64,000 nucleotides of DNA. It comes from Lingula anatina (lineage: Eukaryota; Animalia; Brachiopoda). The DNA lies in the NCBI GenBank assembly GCA_051362555.1, contig CM120640.1, forward strand, positions 71,526,788 through 71,590,787. Direction: 5' to 3'. The notes beneath the pieces are model-generated. The model made no database searches. It was not told where the DNA came from and saw only the letters and a program-made list of their open reading frames with translations. The position numbers and the translations under genes were made by a program. Positions 475 to 58,877 of this stretch are shown piece after piece (positions within the stretch are counted from its first letter, which is position 1; every line of letters begins with the position of its first letter).

Positions 475-3400
475 TCAATCACTTTCACTTTCACTATCAT
501 CAAATCCGTCCAAGTCGATCTCTCCCAATACGCCTTCGCGCTGTGCATGTTCCAGTAATGCCAGATGACAGAACACGTACTGGTCTGGCATCTGTATACT
601 GAAAGCACGTTGTGACCGTATTCTTTGCACTGTAGACTCCACATCCACCTTACAGTCATCTGCCAGCCACTTAGTACAGATGTCCATGGTAATGAAGGTT
701 CCTAAAAGCATTCAAATAGCAGTCAGTTATAACAGGGACAAGATCTAGGGGGTTGATTACAGGGAGTTGGTTACAGAGAACCAGTTACAAGAAGGCAGTT
801 ACAAGGAGCCAGTTACAAGAAGGCAGTTACATATGGAGCCAGTTACAGGAAGGCAGTTACATATGGAGCCAGTTACAGGGAGTCAGTTACAAGAAGGCAG
901 TTACAGGGAGTCAGTTACAAGAAGGCAGTTACAGGGATGGGAAAAAATGAAGAGTTACCAATCAAAGTTATATAAGAGAATTACTTAAAATTAAAATTGA
1001 AGCTATCAAGGAATTCTATTTATCCCAATGCCAATAGTACAGCTTATATCCCAGTTAATGACCCTTCCAGCTGATATAACCCAAGTCAGAGGTAATATAC
1101 CCATACTAACCTGTTCTCCCTATTCCAGCACTGCAGTGTATAATTATGGGGGGCCCCAGGGGGTGGCCTTTCCAGCTGCCACCAAGCTCTGACACTCTTT
1201 GCTCTTGGTGTCGACGTACCCGGAACATGAAGTCAAGGAATCCTGAGGCCGAGTGGGGGACGCCATAGTCTGGCCAGCTGGTGAACTGAAAGTGGGTCAC
1301 TGTCCTGTGCTCCTCTGTCTGAAAGTTTACAGATTGTTTTATTTTACCTTTGTTATAACCCTCCTAGTGCCTCACAATTCTAGAATTCGCATTTCTTTAA
1401 GGGGCATGGTCCTTTTTTACAACTATAACTTTAATCTCAAAATGCACACTCATTCTGTTTTTTATTATTGATATTTATCATAATGGTGAAAAGAAAAAAA
1501 CCTCCCCCTACCTTAGGGTTCTGTATTACTAGTGTAGAGACTGTGTAATCTTTGTTCAGTTCTATTTTGGTGTTGATAACAATTAAGTCTCCATATTGTT
1601 CATAGGTGTCTTCCTCATTAGGCCAGTACTGCCCACACTTCACACGGTTCCTCTCCACAGCTCTGAAATAGTTACATATCACAGCATGTGGTCACAGTGC
1701 ACAGAATAATTGCTTCTATTTCATTTTTATTGGCAGTTTAAGTTTTCAAATTATAAATTTAACTCTAGACTATGACATATATGATAATTTTTCTCTCAGT
1801 TCAACTAAGTCTATTTGATAAAGGTGTATAGTTCAAATAATCAACTGTTCACAAGTGAAAGCTGCCTGATACAAACTGCACATGCACATTGTTATTTAAT
1901 GCACCTGACAAACTATATTTCTAGAGAGAAGAATAAAACACCAATTGGTTGCCCTGACAATGACCAGCACTTTGTTGTCATGATGATCATCACCATTTAT
2001 TTCATCAAAACTCACTTTGTTGTCATGACTATGATCAGTGCCTGCTGCTCCCAGACCATTCTCCAGAAATCATCAAAAGACTTTGGAAGTGGCCCTGAAA
2101 AGGACATAATACTTTATTTTACATAAAATCTTCTTTGTGATCAAAGGATAAAAACAGGCCTGTAACTGTCATCTAACACTTCAACTTATGAATGAAAAAA
2201 AAGTTCTTTCCATGGGTATAATTTATATAGAAATAATAACTTAAAAATACAAACATTCAAAATATACAGAGGCTTACATACTGTAACAAAGGTGATATAC
2301 AAATAATGAATTTTACTGGTCAACAATGATCTCAGAGAAGAGCAATTATAATAAGTTTTTATAAACCTATACTTGAACAATTCCACTGGGAGTGCAACAG
2401 CAGCATTAATCTTTGAAGGGATGGGGGGCGTTTATTCGTCACAGAAGTTAAAGCAATAAGAGATGATACAAATGCAATGTTTCAACTAACCAATCCTAGG
2501 TAAAGAATTATGATAAAATTCTAATGAAAAGAATATCAGCATTTTTCACCAACCATCAAAATGGTGAAATCAAAGTCATTGACCAAGTTAGTTTTTCACC
2601 CAGTTCTTAACAATCATGAAGAAGTTCTTGCTTTTAAGACTGAAGGAGAATCAGATTTCAAGACAAACTGACTACTGTTCCTTCTCCATCAATATAAATG
2701 GATGAACATATAATTAGCCCTTGGAAACAGAAAGTGGAAAAACCAATAGAGAGCTGACTCTAGGTGTAACAGGTAATTGGACTTGTCAATCATGAATCTG
2801 TTGTCTCAAAGTACTGCAGGAGGCTGTTCTAATGGCTGGCTGGATTCAACAAGCAGTGTTTATAAGAAGTATGTGTTTAGATGTAGATATTCTGGTTCAG
2901 TTCACCACTCTGTGGTTTGTTTACATTGGTGCCACACCTCGCCAGAACTGTGCTGATGTCATAAGCAGGAGTCATGAGAACTTGGCAGCACAGGCAAAGG
3001 AGGATAAACTTAAAATAGGAAAACTGGTGGATACTGCTTTCTTTATTAAGCAATCCAGTCGGTTTTTAAGGAACATTTTTGGCTGAAGGAATAATTTTGG
3101 GTTTTCATGAGCTATGACATCTTTTTAAATTGTTAAGCACACTGCATGGAATTCTGAATGCCAAACATAAGCTGGAGGGCATCTGAGTGTATTAGACTTG
3201 AGACAAGCTGGAACATGACGTTTTTCAATATGGAGATGTATACATACGTGCACTTCCCCCTTTCTCAGCTTATACTGAAGGAGTAAAATATTAAAACTTC
3301 AATGACATATGCGTGTGCAGCAAGGCTTTGCCCAGCAAACCATTCAGTGGTCATTTAGACTGCGGCCACTATCACTGAACGGCCTATATTTTCAAAGACA

Positions 3401-3594
3401 GCTGGACAGCTTATTATTTTTTGAAAAATAATGGCTTGGACTCCCTGAAATTTTGTGGGAAATTACAGGTGATACTTTTGGACAGCCTGTACCCCAAATC
3501 CTGGGAAAAGCCCTGGAGAACAGGAATAACACTGAAGATGAAGCAAATTTTATATCTCTCCCCCCCCCTTCTCTCTCTCTCTCTCAAACACACA

Positions 3595-3652
<58 letters not shown>

Positions 3653-6600
3653 TGCTCCCTTACCCTGTGTGGATATATAAGCATTTCTCTGCTTGTACCC
3701 GTCCACAAAGTTAGCATTGATGTAGTCAGTGGTGGGGTCCCCATCAATACATTCTAGTCTCACTCTACTGTGGTCCAAACACAGGACATCAGTGTAACGG
3801 TTCTTGGGGAGATTGTGCCGAGCTCTGAAATACACAGCTGCCATTATCCTTATCTCTAAGATGAAGAAACTAATGTGTAATTACTTCAGTTCATGTACAA
3901 TATATGTTTAGATCACCAGTCTGCCTTGAAGTTTACTTAAAGAAATATTAGATTTTTTGTCAGATCCTATAATGCAAACACTTACTTTGAATCATTGAAT
4001 GTGCCTTTTGGTGCCTCTGCCTTCAGGAAAGCATACTCTTTGTACAGTCCCTGCTTCCCCTTGGCCTTCACCATCTTAGCAAACTCCTCTATAGACATGC
4101 CCTGGTTCTGTGAGGTATGAATGGAACCATCATCAAAGTCTGCATCTGCCGGACGCTTCTTCCTGGGCAGTTGTGGCTGGAGCTGACCAGACACTGGGCT
4201 TAGGTCAGGGGAGGACTCCACGGCCCTCTTACAGGGGGGTGAGCCCACTTCACTGGACTCATCACTGTTACTTAATGTGTAAACCTCGGCCTGGCCGTTC
4301 ATGTCTCTGGAGGCCTCATTCCCAGGTTTCTCCTCCTCTACTTCTTTCTCTCTCTCCTCATGGTTATGTTTCTCACTGACAGTCTCCTTGGAGCCCTGGG
4401 AGTCCAGGTCCTCACTGACAGGAGACACGGGACTATTGTCAGAGGTGCCTTTCACACTGTTTGCTACTACTATATTAGAATCATTCCTTGCTGCTTTGAG
4501 AAAGCTTTCAAACATCTTGTCATCCACTTTCATTGCACCATGTTTGAGACAATGTTTGAGCCATGCCTGATGGTCCACCTCTAGTGTTCCCCCTAGTTGT
4601 TTGGGAAGAGACTCCACAGGGATGTGATCTGTCAACTGGGGGCTGTTCACAGTGAATACCTGCAATAGAAAACCAGCCATGTACATCGTGGTGTGCTTTT
4701 CTTACCTCAGCTCTCCCTGGCTGTTTGCCACTGACAATAATAAGAAGGAATAATTCTAAAGGCACAGTTAAAACAGGACAAATCATACTACAAGAGTGCA
4801 CACTGATTTCAGACATGGCCGTAGTCTCACTCTAGTGCTACAGTAATTGTAGCAATTCATAACAGTCAGTACTTTATTGACTTGTAACAAATGAGCAGAT
4901 CCACCACTCTGAGCCCAGAGCCAGACTTACCCGGTCTCGAAGTTTTTGTCGTACAAATAATCTGAGTATTTTGAAGGGAGCTTTGAACCACAAGGGTGCT
5001 GTAACAACCAGGACTTTCTTTAACCTGGCAGGAAAACCACCCTGGAATGACAGAAGTCTTTTTATACAAAAGAAATATCAGTAAGGAAAACACAACATGC
5101 TACTATGTTAGTCTTCTGCAGATATTAGAAATAAAAATCTGAGACAGTTAATTTAATTGACATCACAAAATAAGTCTTGCATCAAATTTTAATATTTTTG
5201 GTATTGACATCAACTGTTTATTTTGTTTTTTTTAAATAATGCAAATGTTGTCCTAACTCCAACCCTTTTAACCAGTCAATAACAATGTTCCTTACCTTTA
5301 GCAAGTCCAATATCTTAATACTTAGGTCATAGTCAAAATTGCTGTATTTTGATCCAGTCATGTCATAAATAAATACTAGTCCATTCCTTTGAGTTTCAGT
5401 GCTGAAAAATAGAAGGAAGTTGAAGATGTATGCTTTTTCAGATATGCATGTACTATGTGATGAGGGAATTCATCTGTTTTTTTCCCGTTTTCTGAAGCAT
5501 TTGCTAATAAGTCATGACACATAATGAATTGTTTTCTGAAGCATTTGCTAATTAGTCATGACACATAATGTATAATGCTACTTACTTTGGTAAAATATAA
5601 CAAAGAATTCCCTATATTATCCAGTAGTGTAGTTGTGTAGGTTACACCAGATAACTTAAAGAATTCCCTATATTATCCAGTAGTGTAGCTGTGTAGGTTA
5701 CACCAGATAACTTAAAGAATTCCCTATATTATCCAGCAGTGTAGCTGTGTAGGTTACACCAGATAACTTAAAGAATTCCCTATATTATCCAGTAGTGTAG
5801 TTGTGTAGGTTACACCAGATAACTTAAAGAATTCCCTATATTATCCAGTAGTGTAGCTGTGCAGGTAACACCATATAACCTATAGAATTCCCTATATTAT
5901 CCAGTAGTGTAGTTGTGTAGGTTACACCAGATAACTTAAAGAATTCCCTATATTATCCAGTAGTGTAGCTGTGCAGGTAACACCATATAACCTAAAGAAT
6001 TCCCTATATTATGCAGTAGTGTAGCTGTGTAGGTTACACCAGATAACTTAAAGAATTCCCTATATTATCCAGTAGTGTAGCTGTGCAGGTAACACCATAT
6101 AACCTAAAGAATTCCCTATATTATTCAGTAGTGTAGTTGTGTACACCAGATAACTTAAAGAATTCCCTATATTATCCAGTAGTGTAGTTGTGTAGGTTAC
6201 ACCAGATAACTTAAAGAATTCCCTATATTATCCAGTAGTGTAGTTGTGTAGGTTACACCAGATAACTTAAAGAATTCCCTATATTATCCAGTAGTGTAGT
6301 TGTGTAGGTTACACCAGATAACTTAAAGAATTCCCTATATTATCCAGTAGTGTAGTTGTGTAGGTTACACCAGATAACTTAAAGAATTCCCTATATTATC
6401 CAGTAGTGTAGTTGTGTAGGTTACACCAGATAACTTAAAGAATTCCCTATATTATCCAGTAGTGTAGTTGTGTAGGTTACACCAGATAACTTAAAGAATT
6501 CCCTATATTATCCAGTAGTGTAGCTGTGTAGGTTACACCAGATAACTTAAAGAATTCCCTATATTATCCAGTAGTGTAGTTGTGTAGGTTACACCAGATA

Positions 6601-9600
6601 ACTTAAAGAATTCCCTATATTATCCAGTAGTGTAGTTGTGTAGGTTACACCAGATAACTTAAAGAATTCCCTATATTATCCAGTAGTGTAGCTGTGTAGG
6701 TTACACCAGATAACTTAAAGAATTCCCTATATTATCCAGTAGTGTAGTTGTGTAGGTTACACCAGATAACTTAAAGAATTCCCTATATTATCCAGTAGTG
6801 TAGTTGTGTAGGTTACACCAGATAACTTAAAGAATTCCCTATATTATCCAGTAGTGTAGTTGTGTAGGTTACACCAGATAACTTAAAGAATTCCCTATAT
6901 TATCCAGTAGTGTAGTTGTTACCTTTCAAGAGCAGAGTCCAGCTGGAACATCAAGGCTTTCAACACGGCCTGGTGTGAGGTGCTGGCGGGGTTGTGGTAA
7001 CGTGCAGTAAACAGGGCTATGGCTGCCCCACTGCTGTCCCTGGCAGGCTGCAATAGTGAACACAAGCTGCTGGTTTGTTGTCATATACTACAACGATTGA
7101 AGGGACTTACAACTAGAGGATCAGAGAGGCGATACCGCCTCCAGATATTGTACCACCAGCTGGAGTAAGCGCATTCGTATGGACCCCCCCCCCCTCCTAA
7201 AAGGGACACCATCACCAGTCTGGTGTTTGACAAGCTCTATAAGATGCAATCAACAAGAGTTCTCAAAATATGCAAAAAATATAACTAAAAATGATACAAT
7301 CAAGCAGATTTTCAAATTGACTTGCATTTTCCTACCCTTGCTCACTACTGTATTCTCTAGACAAAAGGCCTATTGGTTTTCCTTGAAATGTGTTGTCAAT
7401 GGTGCATATATGCTGACAAAAGAGAAAACCTAGGGGAAACAATGGGCACATCTCTGCTAGATTTAAAGATATGAGAGGCAAGAAAATATGCAAAGCTCAG
7501 TTCATGGTGAAAAAGTAGGTCAAAGGTCAATTTCAATATCATAGTATATGAATTTCTATTCAAGTTCAATAGCAACCATGGACATTTCTTTGCCAATTTT
7601 GCAGATTTAAAGGCCAGAAAACATGCAAAAAGCAGTTCATCATAAAAAGTAGGTCAAAGGTCAATTTCAAGGTCACAGATTGCTAGTGTATTACTTCCTA
7701 TTCAAGTTCAATAGTAACTATGGACCTATCTGTCAGTTTTGAAGATAAAGGTGAACGAAAATTTGCTAAGTTCAGTTCATAGTAAAAGGAAGGTCAAAGG
7801 TCAATTTAAAGGTCACAGTAAATTGCCAGTTCATGACTTCCTATTTAAGTTCAATAGTAACTATGGACCTATCTCTGCCAGTTTTGGAGATTAAAGGGAA
7901 CAAAAATTGGCAAAGTTCAATTCATGGTGAAAAGTAGGTCAAAGGTCAATTTTAAGGTCACTGATTAATTGCCAGTATGTGACTTCCTATTCAAGTTTAA
8001 TAGTGACTATGGACCTATCTCTGCCAGTTTTGGAGATTAAAGGGAACAAAAATTGGCAAAGTTCAATTCATGTTGAAAAGTAGGTCAAAGGTCAATTTTA
8101 AGGTCACTGTTAAATTGCCAGTATGTGACTTCCTATTCAAGTTCAATAGTAACTATTGACCTATCTCTGCCAGTTTTGGAGATAAAAGGGAACAAAAATT
8201 TGCAAAGTTCAGTTCATGGTGAAAAGTAGGTCAAAGGTCAATTTCAAGCTCACATCTAGATTGCAAGTAAATGACTTCCTATTCAACTTAAATAATAACT
8301 ATTGACCTATCTCTGCCAGTTTTGGAGATATAAGGGACTAAATGTTACAATTCTGAGTTACAAAAATGTGCCACCACAAAGTACTTTTTAATACAGCATA
8401 ACACGAAAACCGTATGAAATACAAAAAAACGGAGACCACTCTCAGTGTTGGGCTTTACATGCTCTACAAAATGCAAAAAAGAACGGGTCGCTAGCATTAA
8501 CGGTTCCCGAATTAGAGACAGTTTTCATTTTCGGTATTTTATGGCCGCTACTCCTGTGAAAATGCACCGATTGACCCCAAATTCACAGAGATGAAAGATG
8601 ACCCAAAGGGTAACACTTTCCAATATAATTATTGGTTAAGTCTGTGTAGTGTCTGAATAACAGTGCAAATAATATTTTTTTTCGTAAAAAATTTCATTTT
8701 TTTGAAAATTTTGGCCCGTTTGACCTTGAAATAAAGGTCAAAGGTCAAATCCAAGGGCATATTTGAAATCTACACATATGACTTTTGGAAAGCCGTCTGT
8801 AGAAAATTTTCCCATAATTCCTTCCGTAGGGTAGATAATTGGCATTGAATTTTCAAAAATTTTGACAAGGGTGCATTTCAAGGAGCGTCACGCCCAGGTC
8901 AATGTACCGACTGAGACAAAAAAACCTGGGGGTTCAAGTTGAGGTTATATGTGACCTAAATCCAAGAGATGGGGACAGGGGTCCTTGCGGTCTAGGAGGA
9001 GAAGCGGTAACGGTGACTTGTATCCGGCGCCAGTACGCGGAGCCGGCGGAGCTTACGGAGCCGGCGGAGCCGGCGGAGCCAACGGAGCCGGCGGAGCCGG
9101 CAGAGCCGGCGGAGCCGGACGAGACGGGTCGGGACTAAAACCATGAGTACCGCCAGCGTACACGCTGGTGGTACTAATGAATAGTTGTTAGGTTGGAGAA
9201 ACTACCACACAAAGATAAGAGAGACAGCTGTATGAAATATCATCACTTACTGTTTTCAGTTCAATACTTACCAGGATTGTAAATTTTAAAGACAGCAATT
9301 CCACTTGCACTGATTTGTCTAGGGGGTAAAGGTTAATCAAGCCTTCTCTTTGTCTGATTAGCTGAAATGTATAAGTCATTTACAGTAATCTACACACTGA
9401 CAAGGTTTTTACAAAATTAGTGAAAATTTTTGGCAATGTTAGCTTGGGTTTCTCACAGTGGATGGTCTTTTTCCAGTATGTTATCATCACTGAAGACACA
9501 CATTTCAAGATTATTCTTTATTCATGCAGCTTGCTCATTTTACTGTCTTTAATGTATCAATGAAAAAATACCAACAAATAACTATATTTGACAGAATTTT

Positions 9601-10802
9601 TGTTGGTATACCTTTAATATAAGGTAGTATTTACACCAACACCTAACATCTACTATGTCTTATCAAAGGGATAACTCAACTGGCAATATTGAAAAAGACA
9701 AGAAGCTTATCAAATTGTTCAATAATACTGATAAAAGAGTGAAACAATCTAATCTTACCCTGTGGTTTCTATAAAGGTCCAGTGCACGAGGAAGTTCAAA
9801 TTTTCTAGCCATTAAGAACTTGACAGCCTCTTCCCAGGTGACTGTGGGGGCAGTCTGTCCATTGGTCTGGGGCTGGTTCACCTCCTTTAAGAAGGCCACT
9901 GCTGCCTGAGAGACCAAGGAAAACTTACAGTTACTTATTACTACATAATTTTATAGTCTGCAAACAATGGAATATCTTGGAAATATCTGTTTTCTGTACA
10001 CCAGTAAAAAACTCTCCGCTTTACACACACACACACACATGCACACACAAACAGTCACAAACACAAAACATTGAGGTTTAAATAACATCATAATGAACTG
10101 AAAGTCCTTAAAAGTTTGAGCCTAAAAAGTTAAAATGTTGTGTTATTCAAATATTTACCTCATTTTTCACAAAATCTAAAGTGCCCTTCATGTTATCCAG
10201 GGATGTATAAATAAGATCGACTTAGAGAAAACTGAGGTCAATTCACAAGATATTGAAGGAGTGTACAACTGACTAACTAATGGAGCAGGCTTTACAAAGT
10301 CCACATCCTAATCATCCATATATAGAAATACTAAAAAGATTTCACCATAACTTCCGGTAAATAAAGCCGGAAGTGATGGTCATGTCCGAATTGAATCTAA
10401 GTAAATGATCCTTTCATATTAAAATAAATCATTTCCACCGCCGTCTTGCATTTTATGATACCACGGTTTTTAAAAAGGAAACAGAAAGATAAATTAATGA
10501 AAACATAGATATAATGCACCGAGTTTTCCCTACAGATCGCTTTCAGCGACTATCCCAGACAGTCACGGAAGGTGCGAAGATCTCAACTCAATCTTGATTC
10601 CAAATCTTTAAGGCAAAACCAATTAACCACTTACAGCATGGCGACAAACTATTTTCTCGTTGATATATGCGTGCTAGCTTACAAAGGAAAACAAAATATA
10701 AGATATTACAAAATATTTCAAAAATTTCCGATCGATCTCTTTGAAATCCATTAATTAAATTCGACAAACCTGCTCTTCTTCCGGACATAGCGAAGCAGCC
10801 AT
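475..10802 (-). CDS. PTPN9: Tyrosine-protein phosphatase non-receptor type 9 (PTP-MEG2; Sec14/CRAL-TRIO + PTP domain), 12 exons, ~703 aa
   Basis: GT-AG exons (minus): 10770-10802, 9759-9905, 9272-9361, 6923-7047, 5296-5401, 4931-5041, 3986-4659, 3664-3824, 2016-2094, 1512-1662, 1111-1318, 475-701; total 2112 nt, in frame. N-terminus [19 protein letters not shown], Sec14-like motifs ([28 protein letters not shown]) and PTP motifs [42 protein letters not shown]. Confidence 0.95.
718..940. repeat. Short-unit tandem repeat (CAGTTACA core) just upstream of the last PTPN9 acceptor
   Basis: Alternating AGCCAGTTACAAGAAGGCAGTTACA units. Confidence 0.85.
3571..3650. repeat. (CT)n(CA)n microsatellite
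   Basis: Direct reading; ends ~13 nt from the PTPN9 donor at 3663. Confidence 0.95.
5602..6919. repeat. 56-bp minisatellite, ~23 copies, abutting the PTPN9 exon 4 donor
   Basis: Unit AAGAATTCCCTATATTATCCAGTAGTGTAGTTGTGTAGGTTACACCAGATAACTTA. Confidence 0.95.
7111..9178 (+). mobile_element. Helentron/HINE-like non-autonomous element (pearl/CvA-like layout) with internal ~146-bp tandem repeats
   Basis: Starts AACTAGAG. Subterminal GTACCACCAGC (~7150) is complementary to the right arm of the terminal hairpin AGTACCGCCAGCGT-ACGCTGGTGGTACT (9146-9175). About 6 core repeats (7440-8340, aaggtcaaaggtca-rich) and a (GCCGGCGGA)n microsatellite (9040-9120) precede the hairpin. No ORF. Confidence 0.7.
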
Positions 10803-29120: not shown

Positions 29121-29337
29121 GACTGCATTCCCACAGATTTTTAGATCGATCTATCCCCGTGGGGAGTCTCACTAGATTGCTATCAGCTTAGCCAGCTTAA
29201 ATGTCTGTCCCGCCTACTAAAAGCTGTAACAGGGCAATCAACTTTCGCGCACGCTCAGCTGTCAACAATTTAGCATGAACCCCCAGGGAGTTGGGTCGAT
29301 CCAGATGGATCAATCTAAATCTGTGGGAACCCAGTCC
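29121..29337 (+). mobile_element. MITE family B, copy 3
   Basis: Same TIRs and interior as copy 1. Confidence 0.8.
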
Positions 29338-30800
29338 AAGACTACAATTAGAATTTGTTTCTTGGTTAGTATTTGACAGAACAAAAAAGTTTTGAACACC
29401 ATGCTAGTGAGCATGCTGTCACTAGCCTTTTATTTTCTTTGTACAGCTTAGAAAAGAATGATTTAAATACTAACTCCATCAATCTGTTGAATGAGTTGTT
29501 TGACCTTTCCAAATTAGGAATAGTTTACATACATGGGATATACAGAGCCATATGAACACACAAAAACATGATATGAATTTAAAAAAAAACTTTAAAAACA
29601 TGATATCAAGAAAATGTACTTTCAGCTGTACACAAACAAAAAAGTTTGTTTTAAAAATCTTCATTTGATCGATGGATCAAGTAAAAAGAAAGTAAAGGTG
29701 ACAACCTACAACTGTAGCTCCTAGGGACAATAAGAATTCTACACTGCTAGTCTAGCACTATCTACTGCATACATACATGTTGTCCTGCTCCACCAAGACA
29801 CAACACTCCTGATGGAGCTGAACATTTTGATTATCAATGAGAGATTTATCTCCAATACACAGGAAGGGGGTCAGTTTTGACTGGACCCTTGGTTTCATGT
29901 GACACCTGTCTTCATAGCAACAAGGCCCTGTAAACATTGCACACCTATGTTAATGTGGACATCCCAACTATCAGGAGTTCAATGTGTGGGACCCTGCTTT
30001 CCTCACGACACATTAAACATGATTGTCACATGCACTTTGCTACCTGAGACTTCTACATTGTCTTCTTCACACCACAGCACCAAATAAAGTCATTTCTTAT
30101 TATAAATAGTCTGCCAGTTATGTTACCTTTATAAAATGGTAAATTATAAATATACCGCCTGTTCTCTGCTCTTTACCCTACCTTATTAAAATATAACAGT
30201 AAGGAATAAAACGGATAAAAACCGTGTAAGGGAAGAGCTAGTAATGCTTACAACTTTACAGTCATGCAATTATCTATTCCACAAAAAGCATGTCTCTACA
30301 ATAAATAATTACATCATTTGTTCAGAAATTAAAGCCATCTTCATATTAGAATTTATTTTTCCAGGCCAAATTTCTTTATACCCAAAGCTCTGTCCACTGT
30401 TACAGTGGGGCTCCCAAAGTTCAATCTCCATTACTTTCACTTTATATATATATAGACATATATACAGCAGGTGGGTGGACATCTTGTAAGTATCAAAATT
30501 CAAATTAAAACAAAATTTTCATTTAAGCAATTATAAAAGTAAATAAACATATAACACTCTGTACAAAAAATGACTAGAAAACATTTTTGAAAATGTTCAA
30601 CTTTTTTTTGCCATTTTGCCTGAGCTACCTACAGTTAAAGTTGCTGAGTTAGCAAACCAGAGGAAGCATCCATGGTTTATAGACACATGATTAGTGACCT
30701 GTAACAAATAATACGTGGAATATGTAAAACATCATTCTACTTAGTGTTCCCCTTTTCATTATTCACTCTTCAAGTGATTTGAAAGTGTACAAAATGGCTC

Positions 30801-39800: not shown

Positions 39801-42800
39801 TCTGTCAGATTCTCTACCTGGATGCCAGCTGAAATAACAGGTTTTATTTTGATCAGTTCTTCCCAAAAGTTATTTCCACAGTAGCAGCTTCTTATTTCTA
39901 TTTCAGTTATCATGTAAATGCAATCTAAAATCACATTTTTCAATATCTAAGACAAATAATTTCAATAAAGAGCTTTACTAAAGACTTTTAGATCAACACA
40001 CAGCAATAACAAAGAAAAAAAGGGACCTGTACTTAAAGTAATTTTTAATCTCATTGTTAAAGCAACTTTAACAAGAAGATTCCTTTTCTGTTTTTTGCCT
40101 AACATCAGTGAGATAGTTGTTGTTTAAATATGCCACATGTAGTCTGACTGGGAGCTAGGAACCCAGAACACTGACCTATTTTACTGGAAATAACACCAGA
40201 ATGGACGCGAGTAGAGGTGATCCCTGTGCTGTTACGTGACCCAGTCACAGGGAAAAGTTTGGCATTCCTGTAGGCAATAACCTGTAGCCTATAGAGGGGG
40301 CCACTGATGCCATACAGGCTACGTGTGTTCCTGAACAGAGAGGCGGGCAGGTGGATGGAACTGTTGATATTCTGAAATGGCAGGCATTGTTTAACCTCAA
40401 TTCTAAATATGTGTTATTAAATTAAATAAATTCCTAATTAACTGCTGTGTGATTTACTTCTCTACAAACTGATGTGAGCTACAGGTTATCATGTACCAGT
40501 GTCTAGATTATTTTCATCAGTTTTGTAGATGAAAGAAATTAAATCTCTTTGTCACAGACTAAAATAATAAAAAAAGAAAGTCTCTTTGTCACTAACTATA
40601 AATAAAGAAGTCAGGCATTTGAAATATAGGACAACTGTGTGATCCTTAGAGTTTGCACACAAATATGTGAGCTTTTACTTATTTTGTAACAAAAGAGCTT
40701 TCGATCTCATAAAAGATCCACCACCAACTCAGTAGCAGTGCCATTTCTAAGGTCTAAGATGTAACCAGGAGTGTAGCAGCCTACCTTAGAAATGGCTGGA
40801 GTGCCACTGGGCCCAGTATCCATGGAGGAACTGCAGATAAAGTTCTCCTTGGAGTAGCCATGTTTGTTTGCCTGCCCAGCCCTAGTGGGGCGTGTGTAAC
40901 ATGTCAGTCCTTGAAACACGTCTGCTTTGACTTGAAACCCCTCCACCGCGATATTCTCTGAATACAGACTCATGTGACTGCTGTCACTCAACAATTTGCT
41001 GGGGAGTTTCTCCAACACCTTTACTACACTGTGATCAATAAAAATCAGAAGGGTAAAATTCTGAGCATAATTCCTATGTAAACTGTTCTAAGTTTATTTA
41101 CTAAAATATAATGTCAAGACTCTAAAAACCTCTATCTTTAGGATCTGTGACAGTCCACACCGAATGTCATGCAATCAATAGTGACAAAAGTGACTTAGAA
41201 AGATGGTTACACTTTACAAAACTCTGTAAAACAATACTTCAACAGATGTTCCAATGCATTATGATATGTTAACATGTATTAAAATGTGATACTGTAAGTC
41301 GTGTTTTTATCCACTATTTCAGAAGCAGTGTGGTTCTACCCACCTACTACAAGCACCATACTCCTCCTGACTGGCCCGCAATATGGAATCATCAACTGTG
41401 GTTAAATTACTGATAATATTCACTATATTTTCTGCAATCTGAAAGAGAGAAAGACAATTTGAAAATGGGCAATTTCTGTCAGTTCTGAAATGGAAAATAA
41501 GCGGTAAAATAATTTGTTTCTGGCTTATCAAAATAATTTTAAATTTTGCCTCATATTTCATTTAAGCTATACAGTGCATTTTACCTCTGCATGATTTTCC
41601 ATATAATTGGAGAAGGTTTCCAGCACCCGGGATATGAAGACAATGTCCATCTTGGTCAGAGCTTTAGGATAGGAGATATAGGTGTTCAGTCGTGATGCCA
41701 TGGCAACCACATTACTGGAGTTGATGGACTGCTACAAGATAAAAATGACTTGCATCATATATCAGCACAAACATTGACTGAAGTGCAGTATGTCTTCAAC
41801 TTAAAGGATAAATTGGTACTGACTCCAGATGATGTTATTGTGTTGTTCTTTTACAATGAGATGGAAAGCCAATCACAAGGAATGGAAAGATAAAAACTCA
41901 CCACACTCAGGGCACATTCAGATTCATACATTGCACAAGCTAGGTCGGTCCAACTGGGTGATTCTCATTAAAGTGCAATCAGTGAAATCAGTTTAATCAG
42001 AACACAATAGTTAACTACCCCTAGCTGCTCAAAGATGCATGTCAGGCAATTAAGCTGATTGCACTGATTGTACTTAAGCAAGAATTCTCCTCAAAGTAGA
42101 ACCAACCCAGCAAGTATGACGTGTGCATCTGAATGCAGTCTAAAGCTTAAACTACAGCCCTCTGTAGTATTCAGGGCTTTGTCATTACATAAGCTTGGCT
42201 GTAAATATGTATTCTACAAAACTTTTATGTAACCAACTCTGTTTTTTACATTCACTAGAAGATATGTCTACAAGAACAATATCCAGAAGCAAAAAAACAA
42301 GGACTAGGACAGCATGCACAGATAAGAAGGTTGAAAAAATGTCATGAGTTTGGCCCGTCTCCTTCCATATTATTTATTTTTACACCCAAGTTCTGCCCGC
42401 TATCAAATTGAAAAGGGTGCCATCTTGTTTCATTCTGAAGGTATTTTACTGTTCTTTTATATATTCAATATTTTTCATTACTGCTAAAACTTCTAGCTTT
42501 TGAAGCATTAATGCAACAATATTGTAAGCAAGCTTAATTTGGTCTCGTCATGACTATCAACTCCCTTTATCTACCAGTGCACAGACCTGGTGGCCGAGAG
42601 CGCCTCCCATTGCTGCTAGCAGTTCTTCACAGCAGTGCTCTAAGGTGGCGCTAGTTGGAGTGGTGCTGGAAAGCTGAAATAGTAGACAAGCAGTGTGCAG
42701 ACAGACACCAGCAGTGCTCTCCATAGCAAGGAAAGAGAAAGCTTTACACAGTGATCATTTCAGAAAAGGTTGTGCATCAGTTTGAACCTTGATAAGCATG

Positions 42801-45800
42801 GAAATTTGCTAGAAAAATCAGCATTTACAGAATATTTTAGATTTCTCTGTATTGTTTTCATGCTTTCAAAAATAGAAAACTCTTATTGTATTCAGTCATA
42901 TTTTGTGTTATAAATGTAGATTGTAGAAAGTAATTTCTTCTTTCAAAAATAGTTTGTTTTTTTTTATTTTCTATATTTCCAAACTTCTTTCTATAAAGCA
43001 ATGTAGACTTTAGACAGTGCACATTGTTGGACAGAAGAACACATCACAAGGCCAAACATCAGCTTCCAGGAAATAACATATCACTGCAGAAGGCAACAAA
43101 ACCATAAGCAAAGTCTGTCAACCAATAAGCAAGCCTCCTTTTCCACACTGTCCTTAAGATATAACACAGCGATTATATTTGGACAAGGCAACAAGCTTTA
43201 TGAAAGGAGTTTCGTTCAAGCTTAAAGCAAAAGCATTCATTGCGACCTTGCAACTTCCCCCAATATCAATGTTATCTAATTGACACTGGGACCCAAATCT
43301 TACCTGTGTGTACTGCTCTAGGACCCAAATCTTACCTGTGTGTACTGCTCTAGGACCCAAATCTTACCTGTGTGTACTGCTCAAAGACCCAAATCTTACC
43401 TGTGCGTACTGCTCAAGGACCCAAATCTTACCAGTGCGTACTGCTCTAGGACCCAAATCTTACCTGTGTGCACTGCTCTAGGACCCAAATCTTACCTGTG
43501 TGTACTGCTCTAGGACCCAAATCTTACCTGCGTGTACTGCTCTAGGACCCAAATCTTACCTGTGTGTACTGCTCTAGGACCCAAATCTTACCTGTGTGTA
43601 CTGCTCTAGGACCAAATCTTACCTGCGTGTACTGCTCTAGGACCCAAATCTTACCTGTGTGTACTGCTCTAGGACCCAAATCTTACCTGTGTGTACTGCT
43701 CTAGGACCCAAATCTTACCTGTGTGTACTGCTCTAGGACCCAAATCTTACCTGTGTGTACTGCTCTAGGACCCAAATCTTACCTGTGTGTACTGCTCTAG
43801 CACCCAAATCTTACCTGTGTGTACTGCTCTAGGACCCAAATCTTACCTGTGTGTACTGCTCTAGGACCCAAATCTTACCTGTGTGTACTGCTCTAGCACC
43901 CAAATCTTACCTGTGTGTACTGCTCTAGGACCCTTGTCCTCTCGTTGATAAACTGGCACTGGGACACGTCCAGCTGCTCCCAATGACCTTTGTTATTGCA
44001 CTTATACTTGGCACGTGACTGACTGCGGGACTGGCCACGAGAGCGACCAGGACCTCCAGAGAAGGCACAAGGCTGCTCCTTGGGTATCCCTGCCACTGTC
44101 TTCTCCCATGTGTAGTCTCCTTTGTTAGTGGACACGGTGGTCTCTGGGCAGTACAACTCCTCACTGGACACAACCAGAATGTTCACTGACCGTGACACAT
44201 TGCCGTACTCAGTGACCACACTACAGTCCCAGGCCCCAGAGTTTTGTACTGTTAGGTGTTCCAGAACCAAACTATGGGTCATCACTGTCTGGTCAGGAGA
44301 CAGTGCTGTGTGGACATAGACACCTGCTGACTTGTTAGTGGACACTAACTGACCACCACGCAGCCACATCATCCGTGTGGTCTGGTCCAGTACAGAGGCA
44401 CGACACTCAAATGGCAGCTTATCGCCTTGGAATACAATCTGACTGGCTGACGGTGTCAACTCAAACAGAGGCAACTCCACTTCCCAGCCTAGAATATAAG
44501 TAAACATTGTGAGATATAGCAGTGCACAATGCAGCTAACCATGACCAGATAGTTATATAGTTTGTGATAAAGTAAAAAATATGCCTATTTTTTCATAATT
44601 TCCACCAAGATGGCAAAATGAAGTTACCACATAAAAATCTGTAAGTCTGGCTGTTTTCATTCTGATAGTGGAGGTCTTTGAGTGTGGTAGATGTGGCTGT
44701 GTTAGGTGTGACTGTTTTATGCAATAGTTCAGTATATTAACTATCATGAGCAGTATGCAGCCTGTGTGTCAATTTTTTCTATCTAATGCATAAGATTTTT
44801 AATGTCAATCTAAAACATAAGACATAATCACAGACTTACAGTGATGACTGGAACAAAGAAAAGAATCCATACAAGTACCAATGTGATCAGTGGGTACAAC
44901 AGATTACTATCTGGATAATGAATTATTATAATAAAACAAATACCTTAAAACACACAACATAATCTACAAATCAATAGGATAACTCTGAACAAAGCCCAGC
45001 ATGACACCTTGTGCTAATCCAGTAATAACTTAGCACACAAGATGGTGCAGTTAATCTTGTATGTCCTTTGTTCTAGAATTGATCTGATATTTGTAACCCC
45101 GAGGGTACTGTGTTCCAGTCACTAGCTGTACTTGGCTGGGATCTTCCATACCATGCCAGCCAGTCACTGCAGGGTTATCTCTCTTGTCACACAATTAATG
45201 AGCTTCATTACAACAGAAACAGCATCTGGTTATCTTTAGAAATGTATGTGATATTATGAAGTGGGAATTGAACAAGACAAGCATTGGGACAGGCTTCAAA
45301 AATACTTATACTCGTCTCCCAGAATAATGACACCCATCTTCCAGACTACAAATATTCATCTCTAAGACTACTGCCCTCCCCCCCTCCCAATAATGACCAC
45401 GTGCAGCAAGCTATTTGTCATTAATCTAACACCAAAACATCTAGTCTAAAAATGCATGTCTATAAGATTACCAAACACACTCTTACTTCTGTTTACCAGT
45501 CTGGAGCACAGATCACATCCTATAATGCCCTCAGTGGTCAAATTAACATCTCAAAGCAGCAGGAGTAGCAGAGCACTCAACTGGGAGAACTACTGGAATA
45601 GTCTCTGGGTACAGACAGAGTAACAGAGCACTCAACTGGGAGAACTAACTGGAACAGTGTTTGGGTATCAACAGAGAAGGATGACAGTCTCTAGGTTCAA
45701 CATTATCCACTCTTGCCATCTCACCACCTAGACTGATTACTGAACATATTGATGAACTTTTGCCATTCATAACTTATAGATTAGTTACACTGATTTGTCT

Positions 45801-46128
45801 GGAGAGGAAAGGACCATGCTGTCTTCTCTGGTCTTATCTGATATGCTGAGTTCCTATTCTAAAGCTTCTTTAGATAAGATACAATTTTGCATGGATATGA
45901 CATTTTCCTTTCTTTAATACATTTTCAACCCCATTTCCCTTTATCACATTTCTGGCTAGAAAAGAAAATGCATCAATTTTGACAGAATCAATTCCAATAA
46001 CAGTAGAATAGTGGCATTTTATTACTTTCAATTTGCTTGCTATTCTTCCCAAGGATCTCTGTATAACCTTTTATACAGACTGGTTTTACTGTGACAGATC
46101 TTGAAAGACGTCACACACTCCATCCCCT

Positions 46129-46222
<94 letters not shown>

Positions 46223-49200
46223 CACACACACATGTACAGTTTATCTCCCCCCAGACACCCCCCCCCCCCCATTACTGTTACACACACTTTTTCTCCCCTG
46301 CATTACATGCCAGTTAATTAAGCAATTCCACAAGTGGCAATTGAATGACAGGTTGGCATATATGGTGGATTTGTTCTTAACTCAAAATCGCCTCCATGTA
46401 AACAAGAGTGCTGGCTGGCAGACAGTGGTATACAGTGATATACTGTGAACTAAATAATACACTGATTTGTAAGCAGCCAATTACTGACAGCCACCGCGCC
46501 AGGCCACTAACAGTATTAATAACACTCTGTAACAACCCTCTAAACTTATCAGGATGGCTAAAAGCTTGTAAAATATAAACCAGACAAATTCAGCAGGAAA
46601 ACAGAAAATTATTTGATGACATTTCAGATAGGTCAAGTCTGGCACTGTCAGGTTATATTCAAACTTTTAAAGCTGTTCAATATCACCATTTACAGACTAA
46701 GTGAGAAAACCATATCTGTCACATTGGTATAACAAATGGGAATTAACTATCCCTTTTAAGTTTTTTCACCACTCCCTACTTTTCTTTTATCAATGGTGTT
46801 TTAAACTCTGGGGTAATAACTGTCAATGTGGGACACAGCACAAAATACCACAACAATGGCAGCTAACAATAGCTGTCAGTGAACAAAGAAGCCAGTCACA
46901 ATATCTTTTTATTCTCAGCTTTATTTCAGGTTGGTGTGAGAGGGTGTTTTTCACACACCACTAACTGCCCCACATCCCTCCTCAGACTACAGCCACTTCA
47001 AATGTCACACCTGACAATCTTGTCTACTTCAGGTGACATAACGAGCCCCCATGTCCTAGGGTGCTGTCACTGTGCAGGGACCAGCAGAAAGGAGGGAAAT
47101 AACATGAAACATTAACTTTAAACTGACAAATGGGATATAGGCTGAGAGGGAGAAAAACTCACTACTCACATATCTACTTGTACATCTGCTGTTCTCCAGA
47201 TAGTCTGAATCTAACATAATCTTAACAGTTGAGTCAAATAATTGAGCAAGTTTTTAAAGCCATTTTCTTATATTTCTTTCTGATTTACCATCACTTGCCA
47301 CCTGCATAAGTTTTGTATTGTAATTTTTAACAAATGGAAATTAAAGGTTTGAAATACACCAGATTTAACCAAGGAGTTATAACAGAAGGAGATTACACGC
47401 AAGCCTCTCTATTGTCCGATGTCTGTTACGGTGGGCGGAGCTAGCTACGGGGGGCCTCCTGTCTCAAGGTTTCGTCTGCGTCGCTCTCCTCAGCTTGGAG
47501 ATAAATTTCATATGCGTTATTTCGCGTTAGAATTCGAGATCAGTAATGTCAAAGCGCCGCTGTATGCTGACGATTTTTTTCACAGGTAATTATTTGGACG
47601 ATGTGCTGGAAGGGAACGATATCATAGAAAGCGATTATAAGGTGGTGACTGAGGATGGTCGCCATGAGCTTTTTTTAGTCGGTGATAGATGGCTTTTTTA
47701 TGGCACAACCCGGTGAAAAATCACCAAGGAGAAGTCAAAAGAAAACGTCCCAACTGTGGTTTGTGAAAATGACGTTCAAGTGAACGTCTGTCCTCACTGC
47801 CAAAGGACATAATATTAATACATTAACGTTTGGACCCTCCTGCCCTTGGGTCCCATAAACATATACATTGTGACAGTGCCTACGCTTTGTGTCTGGTTTT
47901 AAATTTCTTAAAGTATTTTTTCTCTCACTCGGTATAATTTTAATATTATAATGCATTTAATTAAAATTTTAATCCAAGGTTGAGGCAATGCCACGACACG
48001 TCAGTTTACTGAATACTCGTTATAAATTTCTTTATCTTGGAAATTTCCCTTTTTTTCAGGATTATTTGACACGTACTAACACTGTTCATATTTGTCGGTA
48101 AACAAGTGCACAGTGCTATACATTAAGAATAATTTTTATTCATTCAGAAATATATTTATGTACAAAATATATCAGAAATTTTAGTATTCACTGAGCTCTT
48201 TAAAGTGAAACAAATAAAGATGAGAATATTGAATTTCAAACTATTATTTACTATATTAACTTAAAATATCTTTTAAGTCAACTCTATACTCAAGCACTCT
48301 ATACTCATGAAAGTAGCATCTGTGAGTAAAACCATTTTATTATATCAATAGGAGAACAAAAACAAAAATTTTACACATAAGCAGTAATAAATGAAGTCAT
48401 AAGAATGATTAAGTTGCTACAGTTTTCCAGTTTTATGCAGTCTATGATGGCATTTTTTTCAACCGTGCAAATAGAAATAATTATATTCTTTTTTATCTGA
48501 CTTGCTGATACCAGTCTGTGCCAGATACTATTCCACTTACAGGCCAGCAAGGTCTGAGAATCTAATGGGCCGAATGAAAAATAAAATCCTAGAAGATAAA
48601 GTGGTTAATTCTTACAAATAGGATGAAAAACATGGGATTTTCAAAAGGTTATTATAGATCAAGACAACACTTAGTAAGAACATTTATAAAATGTAACAGC
48701 TGAAAAAATTAACTGGTAAGTAAGCAGTAAGTGACTGCTTTAAAGAAATTTCACTGAAACAGAAATTTCACTGGCAATCAACAATTTATATATAGGTTTT
48801 GAATTTTTTTCCACGTAACAGTAACATAAAATTTATGTCCACTTTTGCAATGTATAGAGTCAGTTAGGTGACTGAAAATATTTTAAAATGTCATAAAGGA
48901 GCACTATTAATTTAATGCAATCTCTGTTGGCCAGTCTTATCCAGTTTCTTCTCCAAAAAGGACAACTCAAGTGAGAATTTCTTCAGGGCCTTTTCTTCTG
49001 CCTTGCTAATGCCATGCCACTCAGAAAAGAGAGAAACCTGTAGGTTAGAAAAAAAAACATAATAATAGCATTATGAACTACTAGTATCCATGTAGACATT
49101 ATGGAATTATGCAGTGAAGTTTAATGTGTCTTGTTATGACTTGACTGAAATAATGTTCACCACATAAATGAACAATTTACAACTAAATTCATATAGAACA

Positions 49201-52200
49201 TCAAGATTCATGATCACAAGCTAATAACCCCAAGAAATTGAAAGAAATTGTACTTATTACAAGAAATTATTTAAATCCGCCCTGATCCCTACTCTTCTGA
49301 CAGGACAAAAAGGGGATTTCAGAGAGGCTGGTTGCTAAAAGGAAAATGCCCAAGGTTGTTGTATTTTGAAAAAAAAAATTAAAAAGTGTACTGTTGTTAG
49401 TGAATGTTTAATGCATCTTAGGCATTATGACAAAAGTAACTTACCCCAGACACACTGACCTCCTTTTTTCATTGACATATTTTAATTTTTTCCAGCCTGA
49501 CCATAATTCATATATTCAATGCAGCCTTCTCCCATATCTATAATAGAAAAAAAAACTTGAGTAGTGTTAAGATATGCATGTCAAATTCATTATCAATTTT
49601 GAGAGAATTTCTGTTTCAACACTACAAGATGAAATATTTAATTTCAAGTAATGAATAAACCTTAATAGAGTTCTATTCTTTTGTAACCACCAAGGCAAAG
49701 CTTCTTTCTTAAAATGAACTGAAACATCCAAGCTTGCCACCTAACATGCCAAAGTAGTGAAGTATAATTTAAGTAGAGAAGCAAGTACCCCTTAATTATA
49801 GAGGTGTCTTACACAATAAAGTGTGTCTTACACACCTCGACTCAAAGAGAGATGTGTAGTGAGATAACAGGTAAAGTAATTGGTGGAGCCTAGGTGAACT
49901 TAAAACCTTAAGACTTTAAATTAAGAAGCACCAGGATTCATGTGTGTTCTTTTTTCAAAGGTTTAATATGAATTAAAACATATATATGTAAAAAGAAGAC
50001 TAAATAAGTTAAAAATAACTATACCAAAGACACTGTGAAGTCAAACTTCCTGTTAGGCCGCCATGATGGAAAATGCTGGGTGGAGGCAAAATTTTCCAGT
50101 CAAAAAAACTGAGCACTTTACTTTAACAACAAAGTTACCACTCCAAAGCCACCCACCATGGTGAGAAGAAAAATGATGACCAACTGTCATGATAAGTCTT
50201 TTTAGATTTAGACATGAAAAAGGTAAAGGCCAAAATGGTACATTTACCCATAACACTAGAGTAAAAAATTGGTATTCTGAACAAATCGGGTTATTTTTTT
50301 CAAGAAATATTGGAGCAGTATCCATGCAATATATACCACGCCACGACCAAGATGTTCAAGAATCTAAACACACCAAATTTTTTTATAATCTTGCATTTGA
50401 AAAGTACAAAAAGCGGTAAGGCTTTTGGCCATAACAAGCGTAACACTTTTTGATCGGAACTCATGAAAATTGTCAATTGTCGTATCCAAGCTAGACCACA
50501 TGTAAAATCGCAAAAAAAAAACAATACTGCTCAAGCAAGTGTGTTGCACACATAACAATTAGTTAAATTTTATGACTGTCATGTGACACAAGTTTCAAAA
50601 AGTAGGAGGAAAATGTCTTTTGGAGTAATTTTTTTTTCGAAATATTAACAAGATGGCGGCTTAAGCATCTGCTTGTTATTCGGCTACTGAAAGTGCACCT
50701 AAGTTTTATTCTTTGCTATTGCCACAAATTACTTAACAATTGCAACTGTATAAAGACCAAACTTTCTTCATCTGATACTATATTTATAGGCACTTGTTAT
50801 GAGTGGGAAATATTTTTCGTGCAATATTTATTCTCCACACACCACCTCGCGAGATCAACGTGAAGCTGGACACTTACACAGTGAGACCCTACGACATAAA
50901 AGTTGCAATTTATCTTCATATTTCGTGTAGTTATGCATTTAAAAGCACTTACCTGTTTTTTGAAAACCTTGTCCAACGTAATATCATATAAATTCTGTAT
51001 TTCTCTCATTTTTTAGAAACTTGGAACTCCGTTTCTGTTTCTGTCCTCAAAAATCAACAGACGAAGGCACAGATACTAACAAACGAGATTTCAACGAGAG
51101 TAGCAATTAAGCGTAACAGAGATAGGCATCCATTGTTCTCTGGGTTCTATTCATTCCGACCAATGAGAGACCGTAATACGGGCTCCGCCCCCACGCGTGT
51201 AATCTCCTTCTGTTATAACTCCTTGATTTAACCAAGTACAAAATTTGCTGTTTTGACACAAATTAGTTCCCCCTGTCTCTAAGAAATTAATCTGCACTAT
51301 ACAGATTCCTTCATTTAATCTGCTGTATATTTACTCCTTTATTACCTATAGAAGACTAAACTAGTTCTAAGCCGCCCACAATATGGAAATGTCTTGCTTA
51401 TTGGTTTTTTCTTTTTCTCTATCTCTTTCCCTACCTACTAGCAGCTTCTCCTTACAATTTCATAAGTCAAACATGCTAGCTTTTTTCCAAACAAAATAAG
51501 TGATGTCAGATATTCTTTTCAAAAAGTTAAGACAACTTACGACAGTGTAGTTGTTTTTTCTTCAACGTTTTGACTGCTCTTCCCTTCATTCCTTGGGGCA
51601 CAGCACATCTGGTGTTGTTGGCGATCCCGACACGTTGGTTCTTGGACCAGCGAACTATCCACTGGAGGTGACAGTCACACATTAAGTAGGCCGATTGGAA
51701 GTCACTGAAAATGTGTTGTCATTACAGAATGGTTAGTGATTGTTGTAAGTGGAAATATGACATCAATTATATATCATGACATGTAGTGGTTAGTATCATA
51801 TACTTGTTTTCAAGACTTTTTTCCAATTTTTAATAAATCATACACATTTGCATTGTATGTCTGACATATAAGAAGTGACAAAAACTGAATAAACTAATGT
51901 TCTTAGATATTGGTTGTTATTAGACACCTACAGTTTTCTGAGTGCAGTCAAATCCTTGAATGTTCCTTCCTTTATAGTCTTTAGCTGGTTATTGGACAAG
52001 GAGCTGGAAAAAAGAGTCATACAGTCTATATTGATAGTCTTCAGCTGGTTATTGGACAAGGAGCTAGAAGAGAGAGTCATTCAGTTCAATTCTATACTTC
52101 CCCTTGTAACCATTTCCTGGATATATGGTTTACATTACATTTGATAAATCAACCGTAAAAAAAGAGAACTTATTTTACCAACTCACATTTTTTATCTGTT

Positions 52201-58768: not shown

Positions 58769-58877
58769 TTCACAGGGACAGGTGTTAGAACAGACTTACT
58801 TTGGGAGGTGACAATACTGAGGTTAAAGGTGACACTGACATTATATCAATCAGACTCAATGATAATGTTTGGAGGTG

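What the first reader, a model, noticed from the sequence alone, without database searches (positions are those of the whole stretch)
1966..52090. Recurring splice-junction-anchored tandem repeats that create decoy splice-site arrays in unrelated genes
Seen: at least five unrelated repeat units each copy an exon-intron boundary: PTPN9 donor (1966-2037, x2), QDPR acceptor (25900-26354, x6), ADGRA3 donors (39500-39730, x4; 43289-43934, x~20) and an ADGRA3 acceptor (51971-52090, x2). Five further arrays begin within ~5-65 nt of a splice site (718-940, 5602-6919, 19430-19853, 20243-20853, 55829-56389). Units are locus-specific, the extra copies always lie in the intron, and divergence ranges from near-identical to decayed. 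Inference: either a mutational process focused on splice junctions (for example co-transcriptional breaks or R-loops repaired by iterative slippage), or selection leaving such arrays, plus splicing able to pick the one productive site among many. Known precedent is limited to the tandem-duplication (AGGT proto-splice site) model of intron gain; I cannot confirm whether this density has been described.
Basis: partly seen in the sequence, partly recalled or inferred. Interest (0 to 1): 0.85.

Follow-up and report, generated by a model that had tools for sequence, protein, structure and literature searches.

The report
Splice-junction "mirage" minisatellites in a brachiopod
In three genes of a lamp shell (brachiopod), short pieces spanning exon borders have been copied head to tail into the neighbouring introns, leaving rows of spare splice signals that the sampled RNA skips at the three sites checked; this repeat type is already known from lancelets and a few human genes and is likely tolerated clutter rather than a control device.

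Summary
Four arrays clearly copy an exon-intron junction: QDPR acceptor (77 nt x6), ADGRA3 donors (32 nt x20; 56 nt x4, decayed) and an ADGRA3 acceptor (60 nt x2). The PTPN9 donor copy is real but partial and below threshold. The best-matching protein (99%) is labelled Lingula anatina.

The claim of little precedent fails. These are "mirage" minisatellites, described in amphioxus (Adh3, globins, TnC, PGBD5); donor-side cases are known in human F7, CBS and ABCA7. This scan has reported the same pattern on other DNA (annelid, urchin, shark, clam, octopod).

RNA at three arrays lists only the exon-proximal site (17, 8 and 7 reads, plus contigs). Depth is low, some rows are hidden, and 27 of 28 decoys with GT/AG would give a stop, so decay could mask their use.

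Against an array-collapsed null, 4 of 19 intronic arrays span a junction versus 1.4-1.9 expected (P 0.04-0.12), in a window chosen for this pattern. Ten of 19 lie 85-1571 nt from any splice site.

Likely ordinary tandem duplication filtered by positional splice-site choice; a junction-focused mutational bias is neither shown nor excluded.

The parts
25909..26354 (+). QDPR intron-3 acceptor mirage: about 6 units of 76-77 nt (about 45-50 nt intron end, AG, 27-32 nt exon start). Real acceptor 26327 is the last copy; decoys at 25947, 26023, 26100, 26174, 26250. Each junction reads AG|GTATGA.
   Evidence: RNA uses 26327
43289..43933 (-). ADGRA3 donor mirage: 20 units of 32 nt (20 nt exon end, 12 nt intron). 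Real donor 43910 is the first copy; 19 decoys keep GT and 18 have an identical 9-mer. A 6-nt microhomology lies in register at the two ends.
   Evidence: RNA loose ends carry real-exon letters
39501..39723 (-). ADGRA3 decayed donor mirage: about 4 units of 56 nt. Real donor 39714; copies at 39658 (GT lost), 39599 and 39543.
   Evidence: joint 39250-39715 in RNA, and a genomic contig spans the array
51974..52085 (-). ADGRA3 acceptor duplication, 60 nt x about 1.9. Real acceptor 52003; decoy 52063, whose use would add 20 codons in frame without a stop.
   Evidence: reference protein P0001 lacks the insertion; no RNA laid here
1960..2036 (-). PTPN9 partial donor duplication at 45 nt offset. Real donor 2015; copy at 1970 is weak (-2.5 bits).
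   Evidence: below the thresholds
5602..6919 (-). PTPN9 intronic minisatellite, 56 nt x 23.6, starting 3 nt after donor 6922. Its unit resembles the donor's first bases, but the 22 copies score 0.6 bits or less, so they are not usable decoys.
20242..20853 (-). KCMF1 intronic minisatellite, 34 nt x 18, 13 nt from donor 20866; no junction in the unit.
19429..19854 (-). KCMF1 intronic minisatellite, 26 nt unit, 61 nt from acceptor 19367; no junction in the unit.
757..937 (-). PTPN9 intronic 14/28-nt minisatellite, 55 nt from acceptor 701, in a 409-nt intron.
55829..56389 (-). ADGRA3 intronic minisatellite, 62-63 nt x 9, 66 nt from donor 56455.
475..9905 (-). PTPN9-like host gene (CRAL-TRIO plus tyrosine phosphatase), 11 modelled coding exons; first exon not resolved.
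24400..27084 (+). QDPR (dihydropteridine reductase) host gene, 6 exons, 237 aa.
   Evidence: the last two joints and the 26327 acceptor seen in RNA
30774..61535 (-). ADGRA3 host gene, 17 modelled exons including an 87-nt cassette exon; first exon not located.

Best explanation
These are 'mirage' minisatellites: tandem repeats whose units include an exon-intron junction, likely made by ordinary local duplication and likely tolerated because splicing uses the copy nearest the exon body, as the RNA shows at three of the five sites. Steps: (1) shown: the window is rich in locus-specific minisatellites (20 arrays, 13% of its bases) and has short introns (median about 390 nt), so 1.4-1.9 junction-spanning arrays are expected by chance. 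(2) Inferred: a unit is seeded by slippage or microhomology-mediated repair and grows by unequal exchange; the 32-mer has a 6-nt microhomology in register at its ends. (3) Shown: the decoys are not weakened by mutation, so choice must be positional. (4) Inferred from F7: the first donor and last acceptor win through oriented scanning or exon definition, since decoys carry only 12-32 nt of exon. (5) Inferred: rare errors hit a stop and are degraded. (6) Inferred: the 2-3-fold excess reflects choice of this window plus better survival beside exons, where large deletions are purged.
For: Array density and intron sizes. Expected 1.41-1.93 spanning versus 4 of 19 observed. Ten of 19 arrays lie 85-1571 nt from a splice site. 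Decoy scores: 18 of 19 32-mer donors equal the real one at 11.0 bits; 3 of 5 QDPR decoys equal the real acceptor and one exceeds it. RNA: QDPR exon-3 letters join at 26327 in 17 listed reads (X15 3, X18 14) and one contig; stranded runs X12 and X15 have zero depth on 26191-26310. Eight X19 reads and the X2 contig carry real-exon letters for donor 43910; 7 reads and a contig show joint 39250-39715. 27 of the 28 decoys that keep GT or AG would give a stop. Precedent of undisturbed splicing: PMC3087553, PMC3902484, PMC1557585.
Against: The excess at junctions is in the same direction in every variant tried (1.9-3.5-fold), and the threshold-free distance test gives P 0.008-0.024. Run X18 has about 4-6 reads' depth over the array part of QDPR intron 3 and none over introns 4 and 5; this could be retention, upstream-decoy use or reads from several units piled onto two. 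The listed reads bound decoy share only below 16%, 31% and 35%. One loose-end row and 36 loose-end plus 116 piece rows were not shown. In human 6-16, CBS and ABCA7 the nearest decoys are used. The survival step (6) was not tested.
Confidence: 0.66

Rival explanations
1. Duplications arise preferentially at exon-intron borders (breaks or slippage focused by chromatin edges, R-loops or recombination), so mirages mark a junction-biased mutational process.
For: 4 of 19 span a junction and 9 of 19 lie within 66 nt versus 4.1-4.5 expected (P 0.01-0.02). Two arrays start 3 and 13 nt from a donor without carrying a usable site. One earlier unchecked note reports enrichment in another genome (e1-8148234).
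Against: The 66-nt cut-off was set after seeing the data and the window was chosen for the pattern. The 15 purely intronic arrays give P 0.08. Spanning P is 0.12-0.21 under the any-span null in 3 of 4 sets. Another unchecked note found chance levels in a wider sample (e1-9992352). Nothing here points to R-loops or breaks.
Confidence: 0.2
2. The decoy arrays are functional: copy number tunes gene output by diverting some transcripts to unproductive splicing and decay.
For: Decoys keep full-strength signals and almost all lead to stops. ABCA7 VNTR length affects splicing (PMC5954066). X18 has reads over the QDPR array.
Against: No decoy joint or loose end is listed in 8 run-lays. One array is decayed with a GT lost and the PTPN9 copy is dead. 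Intact signals are expected from young, homogenised repeats; in the 32-mer, 10 substitutions lie in the 20 exon-like columns and none in the 12 intron columns, but they collapse to about 7 independent events against 1 deletion, too few to infer constraint.
Confidence: 0.08
3. The arrays are assembly artefacts.
For: No long reads were seen. The 20-copy array and the first four QDPR units were not covered by either lay.
Against: Units carry private and shared substitutions. A genomic contig of run X1 spans the whole 39501-39723 array with 3 substitutions and one 2-nt gap (X1 may be related to the source sample). Run X2 holds a contig of a QDPR unit at depth 15.4 against 4.1 for a plain intron piece, and X18 reads carry unit variants.
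Confidence: 0.03

Closest known systems
Amphioxus 'mirage' minisatellites (Adh3, globins BflGb6/BflGb9, troponin C, PGBD5). Seen: passages of PMC3087553 and PMC3902484. The original Adh3 paper (Canestro et al. 2002) was not held.
   Same: Locus-specific tandem units spanning an intron-exon boundary, on both 5' and 3' sides, 10-160 bp, many keeping AG/GT, 81-100% identical, with normal splicing reported; described as possibly general in lancelets.
   Different: Host is a brachiopod. Four to five cases lie in three genes within 52 kb (4-5 of 88 modelled junction ends). Allelic and somatic length instability was not tested here.
Human F7 intron-7 37-bp VNTR, with 6-16 (IFI6), CBS intron 13, LMNB2 and PDGF cited there. 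Seen: abstract, introduction and discussion of PMC1557585.
   Same: First unit spans the exon-intron boundary, identical pseudo-donors follow, and the most upstream donor is used. This matches the ADGRA3 32-mer.
   Different: All are donor-side. F7 decoys were shown to be functional by mutagenesis, which cannot be tested here. In 6-16 and CBS the nearest decoys are also used.
Human ABCA7 intron-18 25-bp VNTR. Seen: passages of PMC5954066.
   Same: Array starts at the donor GT; using the next unit's donor gives a frameshift and premature stop.
   Different: There, length alters splicing and disease risk. No such effect is shown here.
Tandem array of dual-specific AG|GT splice sites in human UBC (abstract of PMC10809524), and AGGT proto-splice-site intron gain (as discussed in PMC3087553).
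   Same: The QDPR units repeat an AG|GT junction that could act as acceptor and, once joined to exon 3, as a donor (7.6 bits).
   Different: UBC units are whole coding monomers spliced stochastically. Here the copies are removed together as intron and no new intron or exon is seen.

Membership tests
Mirage minisatellite | Tandem unit spans an exon-intron boundary | tested here: met
   4 clear arrays plus 1 partial copy, against exon models that translate cleanly
Mirage minisatellite | Locus-specific unit of tens to about 160 bp | tested here: met
   Units of 32, 45, 56, 60 and 77 nt, each copied from its own junction
Mirage minisatellite | Many copies keep AG/GT signals | tested here: met
   28 of 29 extra copies keep the dinucleotide; most score like real sites
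Mirage minisatellite | Regular splicing is not disturbed | tested here: met
   Only the productive site is listed at 3 of 5 sites; low depth, steady-state RNA, hidden rows. Two sites had no RNA laid.
Mirage minisatellite | Length instability between haplotypes or in soma | not testable with these tools
   No long reads or second assembly held; unit variants in X2 and X18 do not give lengths
Mirage minisatellite | Concerted evolution with diverged boundary units | tested here: inconclusive
   QDPR outermost unit is 78-83% identical to the others versus 86-95% among the rest; the 32-mer's far-end unit matches consensus
F7-type donor VNTR with oriented scanning | Most upstream of identical donors is used | tested here: met
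   8 X19 reads (agreement 1) and the X2 contig carry real-exon letters for donor 43910
F7-type donor VNTR with oriented scanning | Next decoy takes over when the authentic donor is mutated | not testable with these tools
   Needs a minigene
Intron gain by tandem duplication at AGGT | A new intron is spliced between duplicated AGGT sites, with a copy kept as exon | tested here: not met
   QDPR exon 3 joins 26327 directly; no listed RNA keeps a copy as exon
Dual-specific or recursive splice-site array | The same AG|GT is used as acceptor and then as donor | tested here: inconclusive
   Motif present and regenerated donor scores 7.6 bits versus 6.7 for the intron's own donor; poly(A) RNA at this depth cannot show intermediates

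The most novel reading that the evidence does not exclude
Tandem duplications in this genome are born preferentially at exon borders, making mirages a genome-wide product of a junction-focused mutational process in marine invertebrates; and acceptor mirages with AG|GT junctions, such as QDPR's, are self-correcting ratchets, because splicing to a decoy regenerates a donor that re-splices to the real acceptor.
Probability: 0.15. Interest if true: 0.7.

Novelty: new member of a known kind. Interest (0 to 1): 0.3.

Why it matters
As it stands it extends a little-known repeat class to a brachiopod and supplies natural tests of splice-site choice: 20 near-identical donors in ADGRA3 and 6 similar acceptors in QDPR, where only position separates the used site from the unused ones. 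PMC3087553 calls the origin of mirages unclear. If a genome-wide count showed excess at birth rather than survival, it would reveal a mutational bias tied to gene structure and a steady source of new splice sites. One selected 64-kb window cannot decide that.

Tried and rejected
No whole genome was held, so no genome-wide test was run. No earlier notes exist for this genome or look-alike stretches. The run index listed no RNA holder; raw RNA runs of the same species label were laid instead. My first exon model left out exon 42673-42587; RNA and P0001 showed it is a real cassette exon and the model was corrected before the statistics. Rows dropped before the count of 19: of the 24 loci, two microsatellites (3588, 46133), one non-tandem pair (14473/14710) and two loci outside modelled introns (16747, 18419). 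Variants with a lower threshold (23 loci), without the 146-mer and 9-mer (17), with 3 or more copies (16) and with the PTPN9 copy added (21) are all reported. Selective silencing of decoys by mutation: rejected. The 56-mer at PTPN9 as a decoy-donor array: rejected, copies score 0.6 bits or less. A crude microhomology scan of 9 arrays was readable only for the 32-mer. Pfam gave nothing for the QDPR and LRRCT exons; PDB identified QDPR. Eight literature searches listed no genome-wide test of mirage enrichment and no brachiopod case, judged from titles and abstract starts; subscription papers and supplements were not seen, so absence from print is not established. Also seen: passages of review PMC13196383, nothing specific to junction-spanning units.
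Full report
Setting. The window is animal DNA of about 38% GC with five genes: PTPN9-like, a UBE2R-type E2, KCMF1, QDPR and ADGRA3. An ADGRA3 exon matches a protein labelled Lingula anatina at 99% over its whole length; the next hits are 47-56%. That protein aligns to all 17 modelled ADGRA3 exons. All exon models translate to a terminal stop. The 42 introns first modelled have a median of 388 nt; 43 after adding a cassette exon seen in RNA. No genome was held.

Observation. TRF and an unbiased near-tandem finder (24 loci, 0 in 3 shuffles) recover the arrays. Twenty minisatellite arrays cover 8,448 bases, 13% of the window. Four span a junction: the QDPR acceptor 26327 (six copies, real one last), ADGRA3 donor 43910 (twenty, real one first), donor 39714 (four, decayed) and acceptor 52003 (two). 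The PTPN9 donor copy is visible but partial and below every threshold used.

Is it more than chance? I collapsed each array to one unit and placed it uniformly over intronic and junction-spanning positions. For 19 arrays, 4 span against 1.41 expected if only viable spans count (P 0.044) or 1.93 if any span counts (P 0.117). Nine lie within 66 nt against 4.1-4.5 (P 0.010-0.019, cut-off chosen after the fact). A threshold-free distance test gives P 0.008-0.024; the 15 purely intronic arrays alone give 0.08. Across eight variants the fold excess is 1.9-3.5 and P 0.02-0.21. The direction is consistent but the window was picked for this pattern, so this is suggestive only.

Are the decoys real signals? 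With matrices built from this window's introns, 18 of 19 decoy donors in the 32-mer score the same 11.0 bits as the real donor. QDPR decoys score 9.5, 4.4, 8.4, 8.4 and 8.4 against 8.4 for the real acceptor. The 56-mer copies score -1.2, 10.6 and 9.3; the 52063 acceptor 3.5 against 6.9; the PTPN9 copy -2.5. So sequence does not mark the productive site. Of 28 copies that keep GT or AG, 27 would introduce a stop; 52063 would add 20 codons in frame, which the reference protein lacks.

What the RNA shows. On 26191-27090, which holds the real QDPR acceptor and the last decoy, exon-3 letters join at the real acceptor in 3 reads of X15, 14 of X18 and one X2 contig; X12 (19 reads laid) lists none. 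No row is listed at the decoy; one row was hidden. Stranded runs X12 and X15 have zero depth on 26191-26310. X18 has depth 4-6 there, with 5-12 differences per read, and zero over the next two introns; this is unexplained and may be retention, upstream-decoy use or pile-up of several units. On 38240-43280, joint 39250-39715 is seen in 1 read of X16, 6 of X19 and the X2 contig, with no joint to the decayed copies listed. Eight X19 reads and the X2 contig continue into letters that belong to the real exon before donor 43910, not to a decoy; 36 loose-end and 116 piece rows were hidden. Upper 95% bounds on decoy share are 16%, 31% and 35%, and steady-state RNA hides degraded products. X2 is labelled 'DNA?' but its contigs are spliced. 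A genomic X1 contig spans the four-unit array.

Mechanism. Most likely, ordinary duplication seeds a unit; the 32-mer has a 6-nt microhomology in register at its ends. A unit that includes a junction survives if the site nearest the exon body keeps being used. F7 experiments support an oriented choice of the most upstream donor (PMC1557585: abstract, introduction, discussion). For acceptors, the last copy winning fits exon definition, since decoys carry only about 30 nt of exon (inference; own knowledge). Errors would meet stops. Better survival beside exons, where large deletions are purged, could give a mild excess without any mutational bias (inference, untested). One twist is specific to QDPR: its exon starts GTATGA, so splicing to a decoy would regenerate a donor of 7.6 bits, above the intron's own 6.7; only 3 of 43 exons here start with GT. 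Re-splicing could then reach the real acceptor. This is a prediction, not an observation; AG|GT arrays used both ways are known in UBC (abstract of PMC10809524).

Comparison with what is known. Earlier notes of this scan gave me the term 'mirage', which I checked in print. PMC3087553 (passages) describes tandem repeats spanning 5' or 3' boundaries in amphioxus Adh3 and globins, with units of 10-160 bp, kept AG/GT signals, undisturbed splicing and an unclear origin. PMC3902484 (passage) adds troponin C and PGBD5. ABCA7 is a human case where the next donor is used (PMC5954066, passages). The arrays here meet four mirage features; length instability could not be tested and boundary divergence is inconclusive. 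They fail the test for AGGT intron gain. The scan's unchecked notes report the pattern in annelids, urchins, sharks, a clam and an octopod, and disagree on enrichment; none of those listed names a brachiopod.

Verdict. Real, a dense and clean example of a known class, apparently new for this taxon within what I could search. Interest 0.3.

Noticed in passing
window 22089-22342 (-): KCMF1 intron 4 is an AT-AC intron with ATATCCTT donor and a TCCTTGAC branch-like motif, i.e. minor-spliceosome type (consensus recalled); the model translates through it.
   Followed up: partly
window 21186-21087 and 20981-20867 (-): Two paralogous KCMF1 exons of 100 and 115 nt, same phases, both starting ELLSQLS; either alone gives a full reading frame and both together a stop, so likely mutually exclusive. 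No RNA laid.
   Followed up: partly
window 42673-42587 (-): 87-nt ADGRA3 cassette exon directly downstream of the 20-donor intron: included in the X2 contig and P0001, skipped in 8 X19 reads.
   Followed up: yes
window 26191-27090 and 38240-43280: Runs X18 and X19 (study P7) carry many near-fixed exon differences from the window (most reads 90-99% alike) under the same species label: a diverged population or cryptic species.
   Followed up: no
window 13160-13855 and 60135-60830: Two near-identical elements of about 700 nt with terminal inverted repeats, MITE-like; a similar-ended element at about 57008-57560. Seen by eye.
   Followed up: no
window 14515-14712, 14990-15215, 29120-29340, 61130-61340, 41950-42140: Short interspersed elements of about 200 nt that look related, by eye; the 41958-42126 bin has summed contig depth 4041 against about 90 nearby in X1.
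   Followed up: no
window 7510-8337 and 9037-9118: 146-nt satellite (5.5 units) and a GC-rich 9-nt repeat in PTPN9 intron 2, possibly parts of one inserted element.
   Followed up: no
window 24046-24400 and about 10639-11134: Two head-to-head gene pairs with short spacers: KCMF1/QDPR start codons 354 nt apart; PTPN9/UBE2R about 500 nt, with the PTPN9 start unresolved.
   Followed up: no
window 3588-3650: (AC)31 microsatellite begins 13 nt from PTPN9 donor 3663; left out of the minisatellite count.
   Followed up: no
window 41731/41728 (-): NAGNAG acceptor in ADGRA3; the X2 contig and P0001 use 41731.
   Followed up: partly
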